From an uncultured Actinomycetota bacterium (GTDB lineage Bacteria > Actinomycetota > Acidimicrobiia > Spongiisociales > UBA4744): 64,000 nucleotides of DNA. Positions 21,026 to 60,059 of this stretch are shown here, piece by piece; the first letter of the stretch is position 1; each line of letters opens with the position of its first letter. Where the stretch lies: NCBI GenBank assembly GCA_963718995.1, contig CAVRAP010000008.1, positions 1,236 to 65,235 of the forward strand. The letters are read 5' to 3'. The notes below the pieces were generated by a model. The model ran no database searches and was not told the origin of the DNA. It worked only from the letters and a program-made list of their open reading frames with translations. The position numbers were made by a program, and so were the translations under genes.

Positions 21026-21099
21026 CGGGCCAGTGTAGGGAGATTCTCTTGCCGGTCGGCAGGCGGCTAATCTTTGGACTGTCCGGTTGAGCCGGACAC

Positions 21100-21230
21100 C
21101 GTGAAGGTCCCATCAGTGGCTAAGAGCGAAGTCCGGTGCAAATCCGGCGCTGTCCCGCAACTGTGATGCCCTCTCTGGAGGGATGAGCCAGGTCGCCTGC
21201 CGTCACGGTCACGAAAGTGCTCTCGTAGGA
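21100..21230 (+). promoter_or_regulatory. cobalamin (B12) riboswitch in the leader of the btuFCD-like operon
   Basis: GGTGCAAATCCGGCGCTGTCCCGCAACTGTGA core plus B12 box GAGCCAGGTCGCCTGCC; SD GGAGGA of the downstream gene 5 nt before the GTG at 21286. Confidence 0.7.
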
Positions 21231-26939: not shown

Positions 26940-27443
26940 ATGCGAGTTCACCTTGGCGGACAAGGCCTACGTTGGGCGCTGGCGCTATTGATCGGGTTGT
27001 CGGGGTGTAGTACGACGACCACCACCACGGCATTGACGACGACGACCACGGCACCCACGACAACCACTGTGGACCTGGATTCCACCTCTTCAGACCCGGA
27101 CGGAACACTCCACGCTCGTCTGATAGGCGAATGGGAACTCGTACAGGCCGAATCCGAAGCGTTCAACCCAGATGTTGAGTGGGTGTCCATCACCGCAACG
27201 TTTACAGACACGGAGATGACCGGCTGGGAGTCCTGTGCGCCCTACTCCGCCCACTATCAACTGGACGGCAGCAGGTTGGAGATAATCGACTGGGAATCAA
27301 CCGGCGAGGATTGTGGGGATTGGACCGATGACGGCGTATTCGTCAGGTCCCCAACCGAATCACTAACGGTTTCATTCGAGGGCTCCAGCCTGGTGCTCAC
27401 CAACAGCAGGTGGGCCTTCTTTTTCGAACGGGTCGGTCCGTAA
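26940..27443 (+). CDS. secreted lipoprotein with Thr-rich linker and a META/HslJ-like domain
   Basis: Signal peptide with lipobox LSGC, poly-Thr linker, then a LIGEWEL-type META-domain motif. Confidence 0.55.
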   Translation: MRVHLGGQGLRWALALLIGLSGCSTTTTTTALTTTTTAPTTTTVDLDSTSSDPDGTLHARLIGEWELVQAESEAFNPDVEWVSITATFTDTEMTGWESCAPYSAHYQLDGSRLEIIDWESTGEDCGDWTDDGVFVRSPTESLTVSFEGSSLVLTNSRWAFFFERVGP

Positions 27444-41267: not shown

Positions 41268-41409
41268 GGACCACACCGCTCCGGCAGGCTCGGACAACCC
41301 AGGTTTCCGAAACACGAGAACACGTACGGCTCATCAAAGGTGAGCGCATGTACGACCGTGCACCTGCCGTCGAATGCCACCACCCGGCGCTTTCCGAGTC
41401 GCCGGCTCC

Positions 41410-41510
41410 AGCCAGGCACTCCTGCAACACCCGGGACCGAGCGCTTAGGGCTGCTTCCTTCCGGACCTGACCCATTTCACGAAGTCCCGCCGCGCAGGAC
41501 CCGGCCTTCA
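41410..41510 (-). ncRNA. ffs: signal recognition particle RNA (4.5S / ffs), small bacterial type
   Basis: Minus-strand sequence has the invariant domain IV motif GGUCAGGUCCGGAAGGAAGCAGCC flanked by complementary arms (CCUGCGCGG...GCAGG; GGGAC...GUCCC); lies in an otherwise non-coding 380-bp gap. Confidence 0.6.
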
Positions 41511-41663
41511 ACGCTGCGTGCTCGGTGCTGACCCGAATGGCGGACACCCTCGGGCAGGGATTCGGCCCCGCTTGTAGAGGTTTTCGGGTACAGGGCACCC
41601 CTAGCGCCCCGCCTAGCACGATCGGAGAGAAGGGTACTACGTGCCTTGAAGTCATCGGTCGTT

Positions 41664-41686
41664 AGTTCTCAGTTCTCAGTTCTCAG
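41664..41686. repeat. heptamer tandem array (AGTTCTC)x3, equal to (CTGAGAA)x3 on the tRNA strand, 3' of tRNA-Ser(CGA)
   Basis: Three perfect 7-nt units; part of a ~120-nt element paralogous to the one after tRNA-Ser(GGA). Confidence 0.6.
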
Positions 41687-41788
41687 TCTGATTACTGAAA
41701 GTGAGGGGCTATCAGGCCCCGAGCGACTGACGGCTGAAAGCGGCCCGTCGGAGCGGGCCGCGAACTGAGGTCGGCCGAAGGCCGGCGT

Positions 41789-41882
41789 TGGCGGAGGGAG
41801 AGGGATTCGAACCCTCGAGGGCGGGTAAACGCCCTACGGCATTTCGAGTGCCGCGCACTAGGCCGGACTATGCGATCCCTCC
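41789..41882 (-). tRNA. tRNA-Ser (anticodon CGA), type II, CCA encoded
   Basis: GGAGGGATCGCATAGTCCGGCCTAGTGCGCGGCACTCGAAATGCCG...GGTTCGAATCCCTCTCCCTCCGCCA. Confidence 0.9.
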
Positions 41883-41967
41883 GGTGGCGAGGATTGTACC
41901 GTGGGTTCGCCTGGCCTAAGAAGCCGACGGCGTGACACAATGGCCGTAACCAGGTGAGGAGCAGCAA

Positions 41968-43179
41968 ATGGGTGGCGAGATTCGTTCCGAAGTGGGGCCG
42001 TTGCAGTCGGTCATCGTTCATCGTCCTGATCTGGAACTGCACCGTTTGACTCCGGGCAACAAGGATGAGTTGCTCTTCGATGAGCTGGTATGGGTCGAAA
42101 AAGCTCGCGAAGAGCACGATGTCTTCAGCGCAACGATTGCTCGGGCGGGGGCCGAGGTCCTCTATTTGTCGAAGCTCCTCGAAGATGTTCTGACCGACGC
42201 GGAGTTGGCGCTCGAATTTGTCGAAACTCATGTCAGTGAAGATCTGTGCGGGCGGCGTCTCGCTAATCGGGTTCGGCGCTTCCTGATCGAGTTACCCGTC
42301 CCGGAATTGGTACGCCACCTCATTGGGGGAGTAACCCTCGAGGAGGTGGGGGAGGCGCAGGGCTTGGTAGCCGCGCTCCACGGTCCCGACGATTTCATCC
42401 TGACCCCTCTCCCGAATGCGGTTTTCATGAGGGATTCGTCGGTTTGGGTGGGTGACGGCGTCATTCTGAGCCCCATGAACCGGCCGGTTCGTCAGAGGGA
42501 GACGGATCTCCTTCGCCTGGTCTATGGCCTGCATCCGTTGTTCGCAGGCACTCCCATCTGGTTCGGCGATCAGCCGGGCGAGCATTACCCCGCGTCTGTG
42601 GAGGGTGGCGACATCCTGGTGGTGGGCGAGCGGGGGCTCGCCATTGGGATCTCGGAGCGAACGACTCCATCGGGAGCGGCCGCGCTGGCAGCCCGTTTGT
42701 TCGATCAGAATGTGGTCGATCGGATTCTGGCGGTTGAGTTGCCGAAAGCCCGCAGCACCATGCACCTCGACACCGTGGTGACCATGGTCGACATCGACTC
42801 CGTTGTGCTCTATCCCAGGATCAGGCAGCAGGTGCGGTCGTTGGAGGTCACCCCCGGCGCCGAGGGGCATTTGAACGTATCGGAAGCACCCGATCTCCTA
42901 GCCGGGTTGAGGTGGGCGACGGGTCGCGGCGAGATTCACTCCATCGAGCCGCCGCTGCAGAGCGTTCAAGCCGAACGCGAGCAATGGAACGACGCCAATA
43001 ACACCTTTGCCCTGGCGCCGGGAGAGGTGGTTGCGTACGAGCGAAATGTGGCTACCAATGAAGTTCTCGAAGACGCGGGCATCACGGTGCATCGGATCCC
43101 GTCCTACGAGTTATCACGAGGCCGGGGAGGCCCCCGCTGCATGACCTGTCCGGTACGGAGGGAACCGCTGCCGCTTTAG
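41968..43179 (+). CDS. arcA: arginine deiminase
   Basis: ADI signature N-terminus (EVGPLQSVIVHRPDLEL...) and catalytic Cys (GGPRCMTCP) near the C-terminus. Confidence 0.9.
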   Translation: MGGEIRSEVGPLQSVIVHRPDLELHRLTPGNKDELLFDELVWVEKAREEHDVFSATIARAGAEVLYLSKLLEDVLTDAELALEFVETHVSEDLCGRRLANRVRRFLIELPVPELVRHLIGGVTLEEVGEAQGLVAALHGPDDFILTPLPNAVFMRDSSVWVGDGVILSPMNRPVRQRETDLLRLVYGLHPLFAGTPIWFGDQPGEHYPASVEGGDILVVGERGLAIGISERTTPSGAAALAARLFDQNVVDRILAVELPKARSTMHLDTVVTMVDIDSVVLYPRIRQQVRSLEVTPGAEGHLNVSEAPDLLAGLRWATGRGEIHSIEPPLQSVQAEREQWNDANNTFALAPGEVVAYERNVATNEVLEDAGITVHRIPSYELSRGRGGPRCMTCPVRREPLPL

Positions 43180-43637
43180 GCTCTGCGCGTTTCGAAGAAC
43201 TCCTGCAACTGGTGGGCGCATTCGCTTTCGAGGAGCCCGCCCACCAGATCGATGTGGTGGTTGAGCCTCCGGTCTTGCGGGATGTTGTACAGGCTCCAGG
43301 CGGCACCGGCTTTCAGGTCCGGGGCACCAAACACGATCCGTTCGAGACGCGCCAAGACGGCCGCCCCGGCACACATGGCGCACGGTTCGAGGGTGACGAC
43401 CAGGGTATGCCCGGTCATCCTCCAGTCGTCGCGGTTCCGGGCGGCTGCCGAGAGGACCAATATTTCCGCATGAGCGGTCGGGTCCTGCAGCTGTTCCCGA
43501 CGATTGTGATCGGAGGCAACGACGGTGCCTTGCGGATCGAGCAAGACGGCGCCGACCGGCACGTCACCGTGTTCGGTGGCCCGGCCGGCCTCTGTCAGGG
43601 CAGCTCGCATCGCGGTTTCGAGTTGGGCTTGGTCCAT
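43176..43637 (-). CDS. tadA: tRNA-specific adenosine deaminase TadA
   Basis: CDA-fold zinc ligands HAE and PCAMCAGA; 153 aa. Confidence 0.85.
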   Translation of the reverse strand: MDQAQLETAMRAALTEAGRATEHGDVPVGAVLLDPQGTVVASDHNRREQLQDPTAHAEILVLSAAARNRDDWRMTGHTLVVTLEPCAMCAGAAVLARLERIVFGAPDLKAGAAWSLYNIPQDRRLNHHIDLVGGLLESECAHQLQEFFETRRA

Positions 43638-43661
43638 GTCGCTTTACACTATGTCGCTGTT

Positions 43662-43752
43662 GGAGGGATCGCATAGTCTGGCCTAGTGCGCACGCCTGGA
43701 AAGCGTGTAGGGGGTTCACGCTCCCTCGAGGGTTCAAATCCCTCTCCCTCCG
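43662..43752 (+). tRNA. tRNA-Ser (anticodon GGA), type II
   Basis: GGAGGGATCGCATAGTCTGGCCTAGTGCGCACGCCTGGAAAGCGTG...GGTTCAAATCCCTCTCCCTCCG. Confidence 0.9.
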
Positions 43753-43858
43753 CGACGGGTCGGCCGTTGGCCGGCCCGAGTGCGCAGAGCGGCTAAGCCG
43801 ATCTGCTGTCAGTTGTCAGTCCGCTCGGGGCCGAGTGCCCCTCGCTTCAGTCGTCAGA

Positions 43859-43882
43859 CTGATAACTGATAACTGATAACTG
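43859..43882. repeat. heptamer tandem array (CTGATAA)x3 between tRNA-Ser(GGA) and tRNA-Ser(TGA)
   Basis: Three perfect 7-nt units, preceded by hairpins (GGCCG-ttgg-CCGGCC, GGGGCCgagtGCCCC); paralog of the element at 41664. Confidence 0.6.
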
Positions 43883-43903
43883 CGGTGGCGTGGCCACCGT
43901 TAT

Positions 43904-43992
43904 GGAGGGATGACCGAGCGGACGAAGGTGGCAGTCTTGAAAACTGCTGTGGGGTTCACGCCCTACCGTGGGTTCGAATCCCACTCCCTCCG
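43904..43992 (+). tRNA. tRNA-Ser (anticodon TGA), type II
   Basis: GGAGGGATGACCGAGCGGACGAAGGTGGCAGTCTTGAAAACTGC...GGTTCGAATCCCACTCCCTCCG. Confidence 0.9.
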
Positions 43993-44538
43993 CCGACCGC
44001 CTAGCTTCACGTAGCCGGATCCGAAGCGAAACGAGCACAACATCCGCTCGCACGGGATGGGGACTTCGGCGTTCGTTACCTGGGCTACTCGGGTCGCCGG
44101 GCTGGGGTACTGGGGATTGCCGGTCCTGGGAGGTGTTCAGTTGACTCGCGGCTCATCACCATCGGCCTGTTGGGCATTGCCGGTGTCGCCCTGGGCGGCC
44201 TCACCGCGGCCGTGCTGGGTGTTGTGGTGTGTCTGGTCGTTGTGACGGCCCTCAGCGTTGAGACGGTCCCACATCGGGATGCTCTCCGCCAGCTTCGGTG
44301 AGGGCGCTGCAAGACTGACGACGCACGATGACTAGAGCCAAAGGGGGCACCAAGGTTCTGTGAATCTGGGGTGTGACGGCGGCACCAAATACCTTCCCGG
44401 CGATAGCTACCACTGATCAGTGCCGACAAAGCGGATAGGTCACACCGGCGACCGGACCGTGATCAACTACCGTCTCTGTCGAGTGCTTTGAGAATTTCAG
44501 CACAGATTTGGGCAGACCGCCCGAGAGGAGATCCAGCC

Positions 44539-46290: not shown

Positions 46291-46520
46291 AGGCTTCGGG
46301 CGGGTCGGTCTACAACGGGAGCGAGGGCGGCCGGGCTGATCATGATGGTGAGCCGTCCCGGTTCGTGGATCACCCGTCAACCAGAGGTCAGTCCGGTCGT
46401 CGCGTCACGCTCCCGTTCTCTCTGTATGACGGAGTGCTGCCGGTTAGCCGGGGTCGAGGGTTGGAGCTTGGAGCGAGGAACTTGTAACTTGGTCAGGCCA
46501 CCGGTGAAAACCGGTGACCT

Positions 46521-46613
<93 letters not shown>

Positions 46614-52412: not shown

Positions 52413-52530
52413 GCCGCTCCTTCGGATAGATCGAAGAGGAGCGAAAGCGCCACCTCATCGATCAGGCCTTGGCACCGTGATCCCGGGGATCGGTTGCCGC
52501 GGTTTCGTCGGGCCTGTCCCTCCACCGCTC
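52413..52530 (-). promoter_or_regulatory. SAM-I (S-box) riboswitch in the metH leader, with an SD-sequestering expression platform
   Basis: Minus strand: CUCAUCUUGAGCGGUGGAGGGACAGGCCCGACGAAACCGCGGCAACC...ACGGUGCCAAGGCCUGAUCGAUGAGG matches S-box P1-P4 conserved positions; downstream GCUCCU...GGAGCG hairpin occludes the SD before the ATG at 52412. Confidence 0.7.
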
Positions 52531-52640
52531 AAGATGAGTTCGCAGAAGCATACCCTCGGTCGATCGATGGTCAACATGCGGGGTTTTCGTTTACTCCGGG
52601 GTCGACTACCTTTAGCGAGCAAACCCCTCGTGGGGATTGT

Positions 52641-59611: not shown

Positions 59612-59700
59612 AGTGGACCTGTGTGGACGGCTGTGGACGCCGGTGAAATCGAAAGCCTTTCATTTCGGGCTGTGTGGACGTCTGTGGACGTCTGTGGACG
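59612..59700. promoter_or_regulatory. two clusters of three 10-bp-phased direct repeats (TGTGGACG; CGTCCACAGA on the operon strand) upstream of the VTC operon
   Basis: Units at 59612 (variant AGTGGACC), 59622, 59632 and at 59673, 59683, 59693; phasing typical of OmpR/PhoB-family tandem half-sites; also resembles the DnaA box (CGTCCACA versus TTGTCCACA). Confidence 0.5.
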
Positions 59701-59715
59701 CTGCTTGGAGATCTG

Positions 59716-59755
59716 CGGATCAGGAGGTTGGGGGTTCGAGTCCCTCCGGGCGTGC
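59716..59755 (+). repeat. 40-bp exact copy of the tRNA-Arg 3' half (anticodon loop to acceptor stem); attR-like
   Basis: cggatcaggaggttgggggttcgagtccctccgggcgtgc identical to 52677-52716. Confidence 0.8.
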
Positions 59756-60059
59756 TAGTGAAACCCCTGCGAGAGCGGGGGTTTCGTCGCGAGCAGGGGT
59801 TGGCTCCCGGAAGCAGGTGGACCTTGGGAGCCTTTCTCCATCTGAGGCGGCTTTCGCTTCGAGGTTGCGGCTTGGTGAAGCGTGATATATGCGGATGCGT
59901 GAAGACGCTATTCCCGCCCGGGATCGGCCGTTTCGCCGAGCGACCGGACAATCTTGCGAGCCTCCTCGCCCCGAAGGGATTGAGACACGATCTTGGGCGT
60001 AATGTTGTTCGTGTTCAGGTTTTGGCCGCATTCGCTCCCTGTATAAGTGGAGGATCAGA

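What the first reader, a model, noticed from the sequence alone, without database searches (positions are those of the whole stretch)
41664..43882. Paralogous ~120-nt elements with (CTGAnAA)x3 heptad arrays trail two different tRNA-Ser genes
The 3' flank of tRNA-Ser(CGA) (minus strand, 41664-41788) and that of tRNA-Ser(GGA) (plus strand, 43753-43882) share the same architecture, in tRNA orientation. Each has a GC hairpin (GGCC-ttcg-GGCC or GGCCG-ttgg-CCGGCC), then ...UCAGUCgCUCGGGGCC-loop-GCCCCUC...UCAGuaaUCAGACUGA, then three perfect heptads (CUGAGAA x3 versus CUGAUAA x3). This is a conserved composite element, not a plain terminator. It could be a tRNA-processing or termination module, a small regulatory RNA, or a miniature repeat that targets tRNA-Ser 3' flanks.
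Basis: seen in the sequence. Interest (0 to 1): 0.5.

Follow-up and report, generated by a model that had tools for sequence, protein, structure and literature searches.

The report
Paired heptad-repeat spacers after tRNA-Ser genes
Two related ~130-nt spacers follow two serine-tRNA genes in an Acidimicrobiia genome; they are fast-evolving stacks of GC hairpins plus a 7-nt microsatellite of an already described type (TAACTGA repeats), and look like spacers of stable-RNA gene clusters rather than a new RNA gene or a mobile element.

Summary
The 3' flanks of tRNA-Ser(CGA) (41664-41788, minus) and tRNA-Ser(GGA) (43754-43882, plus) align at 81% identity. Both carry GC hairpins, 7-nt-spaced UCAG motifs and three perfect heptads.

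New here:
- Element 1 lies between the tRNA and a large SRP RNA gene. Element 2 lies between two tRNA-Ser genes.
- (CTGATAA)n is the TAACTGA repeat of MacGregor 2015. (CTGANAA)x3 arrays turned up in over 120 genome loci from many phyla and over 120 viral contigs.
- In related Acidimicrobiia the tRNAs are identical but the spacers are hypervariable. At least three sequence types exist, each with a different heptad (CTGANAA, GTACTTY, TGTAACT). In most genomes with both spacers intact, the same type sits at both loci. Type does not follow the phylogeny of the flanking genes.
- Only the layout is constant: hairpin after the tRNA, period-7 AT-rich tract, hairpin before the next tRNA.

Best reading: paralogous spacers of stable-RNA gene clusters, shaped by 7-nt slippage and by recombination within and between genomes. 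They probably serve as hairpin-flanked endonuclease entry sites, which is inferred and untested. There is no Rfam match, no U-tract terminator and no further copy in the 64 kb. Interest is modest.

The parts
41789..41882 (-). tRNA-Ser(CGA), with CCA encoded. Its own -10-like box TACAAT lies at 41893-41898.
   Evidence: ARAGORN; Rfam tRNA 50.5 bits; -10 box read from the sequence and conserved across loci.
41772..41784 (-). Element 1, H1: GC hairpin CGGCC-UUC-GGCCG, 4 nt after the tRNA.
   Evidence: Folding; coordinates; a hairpin in the equivalent position follows the tRNA in every relative examined.
41740..41761 (-). Element 1, H2: hairpin GCGGCCCG-CUCCGA-CGGGCCGC.
   Evidence: The same module occurs in the mosaic spacer L122_CGA (90% over 30 nt). 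Copy 2 has a hairpin of different sequence at this position.
41687..41739 (-). Element 1 core: UUUCAGC-CGUCAGU (7-nt-spaced UCAG motifs), then H3 GGGGCC-UGAUA-GCCCC (41705-41720), then UUUCAGU-AAUCAGA.
   Evidence: (CTGAnnnCTGA on the opposite strand at 41688 and 41727).
41762..41770 (-). Element 1: CCUCAGUUC, which pairs with the heptads in the minimum-free-energy fold.
41666..41686 (-). Element 1: (CUGAGAA)x3, 43% GC.
41645..41665 (-). Element 1: degenerate heptads in the same register, CUAACGA CCGAUGA CUUCAAG. L122 has CUGACGA CUGAUGA here.
41631..41636 (-). TACCCT, the likely -10 box of a promoter belonging to the SRP RNA gene, 11 nt upstream of GTGCTAGG.
   Evidence: A TAnnnT hexamer (TACCCT, TACCAT or TAGCAT) sits at exactly this distance in all Acidimicrobiia loci. 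This includes L123, where no co-oriented tRNA precedes the SRP RNA.
41356..41621 (-). Bacterial large SRP RNA (context: the gene downstream of element 1).
   Evidence: Rfam RF01854, 169.9 bits, E = 1e-28.
43662..43753 (+). tRNA-Ser(GGA), without encoded CCA. Its -10-like box TACACT lies at 43645-43650.
43757..43777 (+). Element 2, H1: GGGUCGGCC-GUU-GGCCGGCCC.
   Evidence: In L209 and L214 a G-to-A change turns a U.G pair into U-A.
43784..43806 (+). Element 2, H2: GCAGA-GCGG-CUA-CCGA-UCUGC.
43807..43820 (+). Element 2, left arm (UGUCAGU)x2. It pairs with two of the CUGAUAA heptads to give a 14-bp heptad zipper.
   Evidence: helix 3 is 92.9% paired, with pair types GC, GU and UG at one position; the L214 changes keep the pairing.
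43823..43862 (+). Element 2: H3 GC-UC-GGGGC-CGAGU-GCCCC-UC-GC (43823-43845) and the small hairpin UCAGUC-GUCA-GACUGA (43847-43862).
43859..43879 (+). Element 2: (CUGAUAA)x3, which is the TAACTGA repeat in another register; 29% GC. The array ends in ACUGCGG.
   Evidence: Only 41 of 63,979 21-nt windows have a GC content this low.
43883..43899 (+). Terminal hairpin CGGUGGC-GUG-GCCACCG, 4 nt before tRNA-Ser(TGA). No TAnnnT hexamer lies between the heptads and the tRNA.
   Evidence: GCGGYGGC..GCCRCCGC is present in this position in the other Acidimicrobiia GGA-to-TGA spacers (diverged to GCGGCAAUACCGCUGC in L125), with stem changes that keep pairing.
43904..43994 (+). tRNA-Ser(TGA) (context: the gene downstream of element 2).
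46461..46516 (+). Related module upstream of tRNA-Ser(GCT): TTGGAGC TTGGAGC GAGGAAC TTGTAAC TTGGTCA, then the hairpin CCACCGGUG-AAAA-CCGGUG abutting the tRNA. TAACTT (46485-46490) is a possible -10 box.
   Evidence: The module is conserved in orthologous position in L121, L122 and L124, and its heptads resemble those upstream of tRNA-Ser(TGA) in L123 and L125.

Best explanation
The two elements are paralogous spacers of stable-RNA gene clusters. One lies in tRNA-Ser(GGA) -> spacer -> tRNA-Ser(UGA). The other lies in tRNA-Ser(CGA) -> spacer -> SRP RNA.

Origin. They probably descend from the spacers of an ancestral tandem tRNA-Ser cluster (GGA-CGA-UGA-GCU).

Layout. Each spacer is modular:
- a GC hairpin directly after the upstream tRNA (H1);
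- optional further hairpins (H2, H3);
- an AT-rich period-7 tract;
- in the tRNA-to-tRNA spacer, a GC hairpin abutting the next tRNA.

Evolution (shown by comparison). The heptad tract behaves as a heptanucleotide microsatellite. Copy number and unit sequence turn over, units are homogenised within an array, and the units resemble the last unit ACUGCGG at the foot of the terminal hairpin. Whole spacers are exchanged by recombination. In most genomes where both spacers are intact, both loci carry the same spacer type, while close relatives can carry unrelated types.

Function (inferred, not shown). The spacer folds on itself. An AT-rich tract with a cytidine in every 7-nt unit sits between a hairpin that protects the 3' end of the upstream RNA and a hairpin that protects the 5' end of the downstream RNA. 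This would be the entry or cleavage site for an endonuclease of the actinobacterial RNase E type, which cuts single-stranded RNA 5' of C. In variants where the heptads pair with inverted heptads into a long stem, a double-strand-specific nuclease would act instead. The precise heptad sequence (CUGAGAA or CUGAUAA) has no specific role at this locus.
For: Position and strand:
- Both elements lie between co-oriented RNA genes.
- No sigma-70-like promoter or U-tract terminator lies inside them.
- No TAnnnT hexamer lies between the heptads and tRNA-Ser(TGA).

Structure:
- Folding z-scores are -4.3 and -7.05.
- 89% of cells are paired on the window-type alignment, and the changes in L209 and L214 keep pairs (U.G to U-A, C-G to U.G, G.U to G-C).
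- All GGA spacers fold 5-16 kcal/mol better in the sense strand than in the antisense strand.

Layout conserved, sequence not:
- H1 + heptads + terminal hairpin is the whole spacer in L210-212, with (GTACTTT)x8.
- The same grammar with other heptads occurs in L121-125, L213, L135 and L136. It also occurs in the distant L152 (GC 51%, TadA 54%), where hairpins of up to about 40 bp made of inverted heptad arrays separate tRNA-Ser from tRNA-Ala and from the SRP RNA.

Period 7 specifically:
- 10 of 79 tRNA-Ser(GGA/CGA) flanks reach at least 16 of 21 matches at lag 7, against 0 or 1 at every other lag from 4 to 12.
- Tandem arrays in 438 kb by period: p7 = 28, p6 = 16, all others = 1 each.
- Heptanucleotides are reported as the commonest long simple-sequence repeats in most prokaryotic genomes (Mrazek 2007, as summarised in PMC4679880).

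Pairing of types and exchange:
- tRNA bodies and their -10 boxes are locus-specific and identical across genomes. The similarity between paralogous flanks starts exactly after ...CCCTCCGC.
- Within-genome flank identity is 73-89%, against 65% or less between the window and other genomes.
- L122_CGA is a mosaic of types A and B.
- L124 and L214 are nearest relatives (ArcA 98%, 90-100% DNA identity across tadA to serS) but carry type B and type A respectively at both loci.

Nuclease preference:
- Mycobacterial RNase E cleaves single-stranded RNA 5' of cytidines, motif RN|CNU (PMC10641625).
- The heptad units here carry one or two C, usually as A|CU.
Against: - There are no expression or RNA-end data, so co-transcription and cleavage are inferred only.
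- The SRP RNA very probably has its own promoter. Element 1 therefore need not be a processed internal spacer. Its predicted structure is more stable on the antisense strand (-82.8 against -62.0 kcal/mol).
- In the window copies the heptads are predicted to be paired, which does not suit a single-strand-specific nuclease.
- The RNase E motif is weak, so matching it means little.
- The covariation test is underpowered: 4 sequences, and 36 of 500 shuffles reach the observed count.
- The enrichment of period-7 arrays was measured against mostly coding DNA. Against other tRNA flanks it is 10/79 versus 0/29, which is not decisive.
- Matched types at both loci could reflect selection for a shared trans-acting factor rather than gene conversion.
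- Several relatives are metagenome contigs from one sample (ERZ25039508). A chimeric join at the identical tRNA genes could mimic the L124/L214 breakpoint.
Confidence: 0.5

Rival explanations
1. A cassette or miniature mobile element inserts at, or is exchanged at, the 3' end of tRNA-Ser genes. The mechanism would be site-specific or would use the tRNA as its target. This would explain why several tRNA-Ser genes in one genome carry the same flank.
For: - Similarity begins exactly at the tRNA 3' end. Only 17 nt are shared upstream between the GGA and CGA genes, and as few as 6 nt with the TGA and GCT genes.
- In L213 the same H1 follows all four tRNA-Ser genes; the GGA and CGA flanks share 84 nt, the TGA flank matches over about 75-105 nt, and only H1 follows GCT.
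- The T-loop G/A difference between the two tRNAs is not homogenised in any locus examined.
- Spacer type is incongruent with the phylogeny of the flanking genes.
- Inverted heptads could serve as terminal inverted repeats.
Against: - No copy lies away from a tRNA-Ser gene in the 64-kb window or in the roughly 440 kb of related loci.
- No target-site duplication was noted on reading the flanks (not systematically searched), no integrase or transposase appears among the called genes of the listed loci, and the distal ends are variable.
- The ultra-conserved tRNA and SRP genes on both sides are ideal homology arms for ordinary recombination, which gives the same pattern.
- Purifying selection on the tRNA bodies can explain the sharp boundary.
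Confidence: 0.15
2. The heptad array is a functional binding platform for a trans-acting factor with a 7-nt register, either a protein or an RNA. It would be the same kind of element as the TAACTGA repeats found upstream of genes in other phyla. The spacer, once released, would act as a regulatory or sponge RNA, or the array would control expression of the downstream gene.
For: - (CTGANAA)x3 is far commoner than chance.
- Arrays mix units with different N.
- MacGregor 2015 reports that most such repeats in the BOGUAY genome are oriented toward a downstream start codon; in my own survey an ORF of at least 60 aa starts within 40 nt downstream of 54 of 123 arrays, with no control run.
- Here both arrays also point toward the downstream gene.
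- Matched spacer types within a genome would fit co-evolution with a factor.
- Heptamer repeats affected reporter expression in Nostoc (bioRxiv 10.1101/2022.06.06.494920).
Against: - Close relatives with identical tRNAs have unrelated heptads (GTACTTY, TGTAACT, GGATAGC) at the same place. A conserved sequence-specific reader is therefore unlikely at this locus.
- Only two such arrays occur in 64 kb.
- The downstream genes are RNA genes, so the translational role proposed in the literature cannot apply.
- In the viral set the association with ORF starts was hardly above a random-position control (49 against 33).
Confidence: 0.15
3. The element acts at the DNA level. H1 and H2 would end tRNA transcription as U-less actinobacterial terminator hairpins. 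The AT-rich heptads would be part of the upstream region of the next promoter, either UP-element-like or a tandem set of -10-like boxes.
For: - The SRP RNA has a conserved TAnnnT box.
- By my count from the sequence, the (CTGAGAA)x3 array lies about -62 to -42 from the SRP start.
- Heptads in relatives contain TAnnnT hexamers (TACTTT, TAACTT). In L121 and L213 the GGATAGC units run into the TAGCAT box.
Against: - Neither window heptad contains TAnnnT, and no -10-like box lies before tRNA-Ser(TGA). That tRNA therefore needs read-through across H1 and H2.
- The position of the arrays relative to the -10 box differs between loci.
- The consensus scan found no promoter, although that scan is insensitive for Actinomycetota.
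Confidence: 0.1
4. The element is a neutral remnant. A duplicated tRNA-Ser flank drifts under slippage and recombination, and neither the hairpins nor the heptads do anything.
For: - The sequence is hypervariable.
- H2, H3 and most heptads are dispensable. The CGA spacer of L214 is only 79 nt.
- Heptanucleotide repeats are common in non-coding DNA generally.
Against: - The same layout (H1, period-7 tract, terminal hairpin) persists across spacer types and in distant lineages (L136, L152).
- Substitutions keep base pairs.
- Folding energies are well beyond those of shuffles.
- A 3- to 8-unit microsatellite is present at the same position in all close relatives.
Confidence: 0.1

Closest known systems
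TAACTGA direct repeats (MacGregor 2015, Front Microbiol 6:1397, PMC4679880)
   Same: Element 2 carries the same heptad, CTGATAA, in another register. The repeats are tandem and intergenic, and they are oriented toward the downstream gene. They give stop codons in all three frames. Their function is unknown.
   Different: - Described in Beggiatoaceae, Cyanobacteria and a few Bacteroidetes, not in Actinomycetota.
- There they number over a hundred sets per genome and mostly end within a few nt of a start codon.
- Here there are two arrays in 64 kb, upstream of RNA genes, embedded among hairpins and partnered by inverted UCAG heptads.
- The heptad is replaced by unrelated ones in close relatives.
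Heptanucleotide long simple sequence repeats (Mrazek, Guo and Shah 2007, as summarised in PMC4679880)
   Same: These are period-7 tandem arrays longer than chance would give. They are the commonest class of 5-11-nt repeats, and polymerase slippage is the proposed origin. Some Actinobacteria are rich in them.
   Different: That survey is genome-wide statistics. It does not, as far as I could read, describe arrays tied to tRNA or SRP RNA spacers, inverted array pairs that form hairpins, or matched turnover of paralogous spacers.
Cyanobacterial STRR heptamers, including those inside the RNase P RNA gene (Vioque 1997, NAR 25:3471; title seen in the reference list of PMC2858038; details from my memory)
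   Same: Tandem heptamers sit inside a stable-RNA transcription unit, where they extend a helix. They vary between strains and are not needed for the function of the RNA.
   Different: Different phylum and different heptads. Those repeats lie inside the mature RNA, whereas these lie in spacers between RNA genes.
Transcribed spacers of tRNA and rRNA operons, including the 3' external transcribed spacer of leuZ that acts as an sRNA sponge in E. coli (from my own knowledge, not checked here)
   Same: Non-coding segments between or after stable-RNA genes. They are removed by RNase E, RNase III or RNase P. They are often structured, evolve fast, and are homogenised among paralogous operons.
   Different: No processing data exist for this organism. 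A period-7 tract flanked by hairpins is not a described feature of such spacers.

Membership tests
TAACTGA direct repeats (MacGregor 2015) | Two or more tandem copies of the heptamer TAACTGA | tested here: met
   Window 43859-43879 is (CTGATAA)x3, which equals gaTAACTGATAACTGATAACTGc. Element 1 carries the one-base variant GAACTGA.
TAACTGA direct repeats (MacGregor 2015) | Intergenic, in forward orientation within a few nt of a start codon | tested here: not met
   The arrays are intergenic and point toward the downstream gene. Those genes, however, are tRNA-Ser(TGA), 24 nt away, and the SRP RNA, 44 nt away (from coordinates). No ORF start is involved.
TAACTGA direct repeats (MacGregor 2015) | Many sets per genome (169 in the BOGUAY genome) | tested here: inconclusive
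   Only two arrays occur in the 64-kb window.
Heptanucleotide long simple sequence repeat (microsatellite) | Tandem array of a 5-11-nt unit longer than expected by chance | tested here: met
   none of 100 shuffles reaches the observed counts.
Heptanucleotide long simple sequence repeat (microsatellite) | Copy number and unit vary between related genomes (slippage) | tested here: met
   Window has CTGATAA x3. L214 has CTGATAA CTGACAA. L210 has GTACTTT x8. L121-124 have 4-5 GTACTTY units. Three samples of one population (L210-212) are identical.
Intrinsic (Rho-independent) terminator | GC-rich hairpin followed directly by a U-tract | tested here: not met
   No terminator-like site lies inside either element. 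H1, H2 and H3 are followed by G/C-rich sequence.
Miniature inverted-repeat or other mobile element | Dispersed copies, terminal inverted repeats and target-site duplication | tested here: not met
   blastn finds no further copy in the window or in the related loci away from tRNA-Ser genes. Inverted heptads exist, but I noted no target-site duplication on reading the flanks (not systematically searched).
Any curated RNA family (Rfam 15) | Match to a covariance model | tested here: not met
   With E up to 1, only tRNA-derived matches and the SRP RNA are found. Nothing matches inside the spacers.
Processed internal transcribed spacer of a stable-RNA operon | Lies between co-oriented stable-RNA genes with no promoter or terminator in between | tested here: inconclusive
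   Met for element 2. For element 1 a conserved -10-like box precedes the SRP RNA, so co-transcription is optional.
Processed internal transcribed spacer of a stable-RNA operon | Co-transcription and endonucleolytic removal demonstrated | not testable with these tools
   This needs RNA-seq, RNA-end mapping or in vitro nuclease assays.

The most novel reading that the evidence does not exclude
The period-7 tract is a selected cis-module that tolerates many sequences. One possibility is a hairpin-flanked nuclease-entry cassette. Another is a landing pad for a factor that reads RNA or DNA in 7-nt steps. The module would be shared with the TAACTGA-type arrays now seen in at least six bacterial phyla and in their viruses. 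Because it precedes RNA genes here, its role would be independent of translation. The spacers of one genome would be kept matched because they co-evolve with a genome-specific partner.
Probability: 0.15. Interest if true: 0.7.

Novelty: new variant of a known kind. Interest (0 to 1): 0.35.

Why it matters
The finding links an unexplained repeat class to stable-RNA gene spacers in a little-studied actinobacterial class. That repeat class is tandem heptanucleotides, including TAACTGA.

At this locus the period and the layout are kept while the heptad sequence is not. This argues against a conserved sequence-specific reader here. It also argues against translation initiation as the general explanation for such repeats.

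The locus is also a compact example of paired evolution. Hypervariable spacers bracketed by invariant RNA genes keep the same type at two sites in a genome, yet the type switches between near-identical strains. This could be useful as a strain marker and as a test case for recombination at tRNA genes.

None of this changes current understanding unless a function of the heptad tract is demonstrated.

Tried and rejected
- **Rfam.** Searching with permissive thresholds found nothing in the spacers.
- **Promoter and terminator scan.** The consensus scan found nothing in the elements. It also missed the evident tRNA -10 boxes, so it is insensitive here.
- **Three-frame stop insulator.** This holds for CTGANAA and TGTAACT but not for GTACTTY in relatives, so I rejected it as a general explanation.
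- **Heptads as -10 boxes or an UP element.** This fits some relatives but not the window heptads.
- **RNase III-type stem between SRP leader and trailer, as for the Bacillus subtilis scRNA precursor (from memory).** The duplex energy is no better than for shuffled trailers (-32.6 against -32.9 +/- 5.5).
- **Sense versus antisense folding, to tell RNA structure from DNA structure.** The result is consistent for the GGA spacers, mixed for the CGA spacers, and reversed for element 1.
- **Covariation on window-type copies.** The direction is right, but there are only 4 sequences.
- **Resemblance of CUGA and CUGAUGA to box D and box C, and of UCAGU and CUGA to serine codons and the UGA anticodon.** I noted these by eye and took them as coincidence, because the motifs are absent from relatives.
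- **Association of CTGANAA arrays with ORF starts.** In genomes 54 of 123 arrays qualify, but no control was run. In the viral set the count is 49 against 33 for random positions, so my ORF test is weak.
- **Position-wise variability of units flanking the arrays.** The search pattern biases this test, so I did not use it.
- **Metagenome scan with TadA.** It returned mostly distant relatives.
- **Cluster look-up.** The assignment to Acidimicrobiia rests on the names given to TadA homologues at 76-84% identity.

Full report
**1.

ARAGORN places four tRNA-Ser genes in the region:
- tRNA-Ser(CGA) at 41789-41882 (-);
- tRNA-Ser(GGA) at 43662-43753 (+);
- tRNA-Ser(TGA) at 43904-43994 (+);
- tRNA-Ser(GCT) at 46521-46612 (+).

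Read in tRNA orientation, the 3' flanks 41640-41788 (-) and 43754-43903 (+) align with 81% mean column identity.

The two heptad arrays are the only perfect period-7 arrays of three or more copies in the 64 kb. CTGANAACTGANAA with up to 2 mismatches occurs 7 times against 2.2 expected, and all 7 lie in the two elements. CTGAnnnCTGA occurs 11 times against 2.1 expected, with 8 of 11 in the elements. Both flanks fold better than all 200 shuffles, with z = -4.3 and -7.05. The (CTGATAA)x3 array has 29% GC in a window of 62% GC. Only 41 of 63,979 21-nt windows are that AT-rich.

**2.

Element 1 is followed on the same strand by a bacterial large SRP RNA (RF01854, 169.9 bits, 41356-41621). Element 2 is followed by tRNA-Ser(TGA), 24 nt after the last heptad. 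Both elements are therefore spacers between stable-RNA genes.

Names given to TadA homologues at 76-84% identity place the organism in the Acidimicrobiia. The gene order is serS, methyltransferase, [SRP RNA <- element 1 <- tRNA-Ser(CGA)], arcA, tadA, [tRNA-Ser(GGA) -> element 2 -> tRNA-Ser(TGA)]. This order is shared by relatives. No Rfam family matches the spacers at E up to 1.

**3. Anatomy (coordinates, folds).**

Element 2, in order:
- H1, 43757-43777;
- H2, 43784-43806;
- a left arm (UGUCAGU)x2, 43807-43820;
- H3, 43823-43845;
- a small hairpin UCAGUC-GUCA-GACUGA, 43847-43862;
- (CUGAUAA)x3, 43859-43879;
- a terminal hairpin, 43883-43899, which ends 4 nt before the next tRNA.

In the minimum-free-energy fold the left arm pairs with two heptads. 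This gives a 14-bp stem that closes a three-way junction.

Element 1 has H1 (41772-41784), H2 (41740-41761) and H3 (41705-41720). It also has five UCAG motifs, (CUGAGAA)x3 (41666-41686) and three degenerate heptads in the same register (41645-41665). In element 1 the heptads pair best with CCUCAGUUC (41762-41770).

The UCAG motifs are themselves 7 nt apart. Each element thus carries inverted heptad arrays.

**4. The heptad is a known repeat type.**

(CTGATAA)n is the TAACTGA direct repeat described by MacGregor (2015, PMC4679880) in Beggiatoaceae, Cyanobacteria and a few Bacteroidetes. There it lies mostly just upstream of start codons, and its function is unknown. Binding by ribosomal protein S1, a cold-shock protein or a CsrA-like protein was proposed.

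That paper summarises Mrazek et al. 2007. Heptanucleotides are the most abundant long simple-sequence repeats in most prokaryotic genomes, and polymerase slippage is the proposed origin.

I estimate about 17 chance hits. The loci came from Acidobacteriota, Planctomycetota, Verrucomicrobiota, Cyanobacteria, Bacteroidota and others.

Those arrays are mostly not next to tRNAs. They mix units with different N. An inverted UCAG-heptad partner lies upstream in 23 of 123 arrays and downstream in 1.

**5. Relatives: invariant genes, hypervariable spacers.**

I fetched syntenic loci through TadA homologues. In the alignment of tRNA plus flank, the tRNA bodies and their -10-like boxes are locus-specific and identical across genomes. 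The boxes are GGTACAATCC for CGA and TTACACTATG for GGA.

Directly after ...CCCTCCGC the flanks differ between genomes. Within most genomes, the two flanks resemble each other.

At least three spacer types exist:
- Type A: window, L209 and L214, with CTGANAA heptads.
- Type B: L121, L122, L124, L213, and a minimal form in L210-212, with GTACTTY heptads.
- Type C: L125, with TGTAACT-like heptads. L123 has type-B hairpins with TGTAACT heptads.

Flank identity within a genome is 73% (window), 89% (L124) and 77% (L125). Between the window and other genomes it is 65% or less. The shuffle baseline is 43 +/- 15%. L122_CGA is a mosaic of type-B H1 and type-A H2. In L213 the type-B H1 follows all four tRNA-Ser genes, and three of those flanks (GGA, CGA, TGA) share a longer stretch of the module.

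**6. Spacer type does not follow the phylogeny of the flanking genes.**

L124 and L214 are nearest relatives. ArcA is 98% identical, TadA 93%, and DNA identity is 90-100% from tadA to serS. Yet L124 carries type B at both loci and L214 carries type A at both.

In L214 the GGA spacer, tRNA-Ser(TGA) and about 200 nt beyond are 85-97% identical to the window and cannot be aligned with L124. The CGA spacer alone is replaced, between flanks of 93-100% identity.

This points to recombination with breakpoints in the invariant RNA genes, plus some coupling between the two loci. Gene conversion is the simplest coupling. Selection for matched spacers cannot be excluded.

Two caveats apply. L121, L122, L124 and L214 come from one metagenome assembly, so a chimeric join at the identical tRNAs is possible. 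Also, the orthologous type-A spacers (window against L214, 92.6%) are more alike than the window paralogues (75-81%), so homogenisation is not recent in this lineage.

**7. What is conserved is the layout and the period.**

The minimal spacers of L210-212 are H1 + (GTACTTT)x8 + terminal hairpin -> tRNA-Ser(TGA), and H1 + five GTAYNNN units -> SRP RNA.

The same grammar appears in more distant Acidimicrobiia. In L136 it takes the form of roughly 30-bp hairpins made of inverted arrays GAGUCNU.../...ACUCANN. It also appears in L135.

The unrelated L152 (GC 51%, TadA 54% identical) has it too. There (AGUGAUC)n...(UCACUGA)n hairpins, up to about 40 bp in the tRNA-Ala spacer, separate tRNA-Ser(CGA) from tRNA-Ala and tRNA-Ser(GGA) from a large SRP RNA.

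Among 79 flanks of tRNA-Ser(GGA/CGA), 10 reach at least 16 of 21 matches at lag 7, against 0 or 1 at any other lag from 4 to 12. Other tRNA flanks give 0 of 29, and random segments give 3 of 270. Over 438 kb, tandem arrays by period are 28 for p7, 16 for p6, and 1 for each other period. The random control is mostly coding DNA, so the excess over other non-coding DNA is not established.

All arrays upstream of tRNA-Ser(TGA) share an (A/U)ACU anchor. They end in ACUGCGG or ACCGCGG, where GCGG opens the terminal hairpin. This suggests the arrays arise by 7-nt duplication of the sequence next to that hairpin.

A related run of heptads plus a hairpin precedes tRNA-Ser(GCT) in the window (46461-46516) and in L121, L122 and L124.

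**8. Promoters.**

A TAnnnT hexamer (TACCCT, TACCAT or TAGCAT) lies exactly 11 nt upstream of GTGCTAGG of the SRP RNA in all Acidimicrobiia loci. This includes L123, L131 and L140, where the upstream context differs. In the window it lies at 41631-41636 (-). The SRP RNA therefore very probably has its own promoter, and element 1 need not be co-transcribed with it.

No TAnnnT hexamer lies between the heptads and tRNA-Ser(TGA). That tRNA probably depends on read-through from tRNA-Ser(GGA) across element 2.

**9. Structure tests.**

On the type-A alignment (window GGA, L214 GGA, partial L209, window CGA) with the window GGA fold, 89% of cells are paired. Three pairs change on both sides. The heptad zipper is 92.9% paired, with GC, GU and UG at one position. 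With four sequences this is not significant, since 36 of 500 shuffles do as well, and the structure was derived from one of the rows.

GGA spacers of all types fold 5-16 kcal/mol better in sense than in antisense. CGA spacers are mixed, and element 1 folds better in antisense.

**10. Most likely mechanism (inferred).**

The constant design is a 3'-protective hairpin after the upstream RNA, an AT-rich period-7 tract with a cytidine in every unit, and a 5'-protective hairpin before the downstream tRNA. This is what one expects of a site where an endonuclease separates two stable RNAs while exonucleases are held off.

Actinobacterial RNase E cleaves single-stranded RNA 5' of cytidines, with motif RN|CNU (PMC10641625). 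The heptads offer A|CU once per unit. Where inverted arrays make long stems (L136, L152), a double-strand-specific nuclease is the likelier enzyme.

The heptad periodicity itself is best explained by mutation, namely 7-nt slippage, rather than by function.

None of this is shown. The window heptads are predicted to be partly paired, and the motif is weak.

**11. Comparison with known kinds, and verdict.**

The heptad part belongs to the heptanucleotide-repeat phenomenon. Element 2 carries the TAACTGA unit itself, but not the context that defines that family, which is immediately upstream of start codons with many sets per genome.

The closest analogues are cyanobacterial STRR heptamers inside the RNase P RNA gene (title seen, details from memory) and fast-evolving, homogenised transcribed spacers of tRNA and rRNA operons.

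The element is not an intrinsic terminator, not an Rfam family, and not demonstrably mobile.

I rate it a new variant of a known kind. There is an interesting evolutionary pattern of matched, hypervariable spacers between invariant RNA genes, but no evidence of a new mechanism.

Noticed in passing
L001-L120 (genome contigs) and the 120 viral loci fetched (L215 onward): (CTGANAA)x3 or longer arrays are widespread, far beyond the taxa listed by MacGregor 2015. They occur in Acidobacteriota, Planctomycetota, Verrucomicrobiota, Anaerolineae, Poribacteria and Latescibacterota, and in at least 120 IMG/VR viral contigs, some with five or more arrays. Units with different N are mixed within arrays. 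An inverted partner array lies upstream in 23 of 123 cases and downstream in 1.
   Followed up: partly
window 41356-41621 (-) and 41631-41636 (-): This actinobacterial lineage has the large, Alu-domain-containing type of SRP RNA. A conserved TAnnnT box lies 11 nt upstream of GTGCTAGG in all related loci. The serS / tRNA-Ser / tadA / SRP RNA neighbourhood resembles that of Bacillus subtilis (from memory).
   Followed up: partly
window 46461-46516 (+): A run of heptads (TTGGAGC TTGGAGC GAGGAAC TTGTAAC TTGGTCA) plus a hairpin abuts tRNA-Ser(GCT). It is conserved in orthologous position in L121, L122 and L124. TTGGAG-18 nt-TAACTT is a possible promoter.
   Followed up: partly
L213 89-179, 2245-2334, 2485-2576, 4335-4426 and their 3' flanks: In this relative the same type-B H1 hairpin follows all four tRNA-Ser genes. 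The GGA and CGA flanks share 84 nt and the TGA flank matches over about 75-105 nt; only H1 follows GCT. This holds even though the TGA and GCT tRNAs share only about 6 nt with the others at the junction.
   Followed up: partly
L152 3571-3683 and 3860-3949: In a distant genome (GC 51%), hairpins made entirely of inverted heptad arrays (AGUGAUC.../...UCACUGA), up to about 40 bp and near-perfect in the tRNA-Ala spacer, form the spacers tRNA-Ser(CGA)->tRNA-Ala and tRNA-Ser(GGA)->large SRP RNA. A short inverted pair also follows tRNA-Ser(GCT).
   Followed up: partly
L124 against L214 (both from ENA assembly ERZ25039508), left of tRNA-Ser(GGA): Sequence ancestry changes abruptly at tRNA-Ser(GGA). 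To the right the two contigs are 90-100% identical. To the left they cannot be aligned, while L214 matches the window at 85-97% through tRNA-Ser(TGA) and about 200 nt beyond. This is either a recombination or island breakpoint at the tRNA cluster or an assembly chimera.
   Followed up: partly
window 59620-59760 (+): Five copies of a decamer, TGTGGACGNC (two at 59623-59640 and three perfect at 59673-59700), are followed by a weak tRNA-like T-arm and acceptor end (Rfam tRNA 22.7 bits, below the threshold of 29, at 59688-59754) and then a GC hairpin. It may be a tRNA remnant or attachment-site relic.
   Followed up: partly
window 44080-44123 (+): A 22-nt unit (CTGGGCTACTCGGGATCGCCGGG) is repeated twice, about 90 nt downstream of tRNA-Ser(TGA). 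This flank is conserved in L122 and L214.
   Followed up: no
window 52452-52540 (-) and 21088-21218 (+): A SAM riboswitch (77.2 bits) and a cobalamin riboswitch (57.7 bits) lie elsewhere in the window.
   Followed up: no
L121, L213, L124 and L210, upstream of the SRP RNA; L123 1080-1098: Other heptad arrays lie directly upstream of, or run into, the -10 box of the SRP RNA: (GGATAGC)n into TAGCAT, and AACCTGC CACCTGC AACCTGG in L123.
   Followed up: no
window 27013-27067: A 21-nt period tandem repeat (2.6 copies, 76% matches) rich in CGACGACAACCACCAC. It is probably a coding repeat.
   Followed up: no
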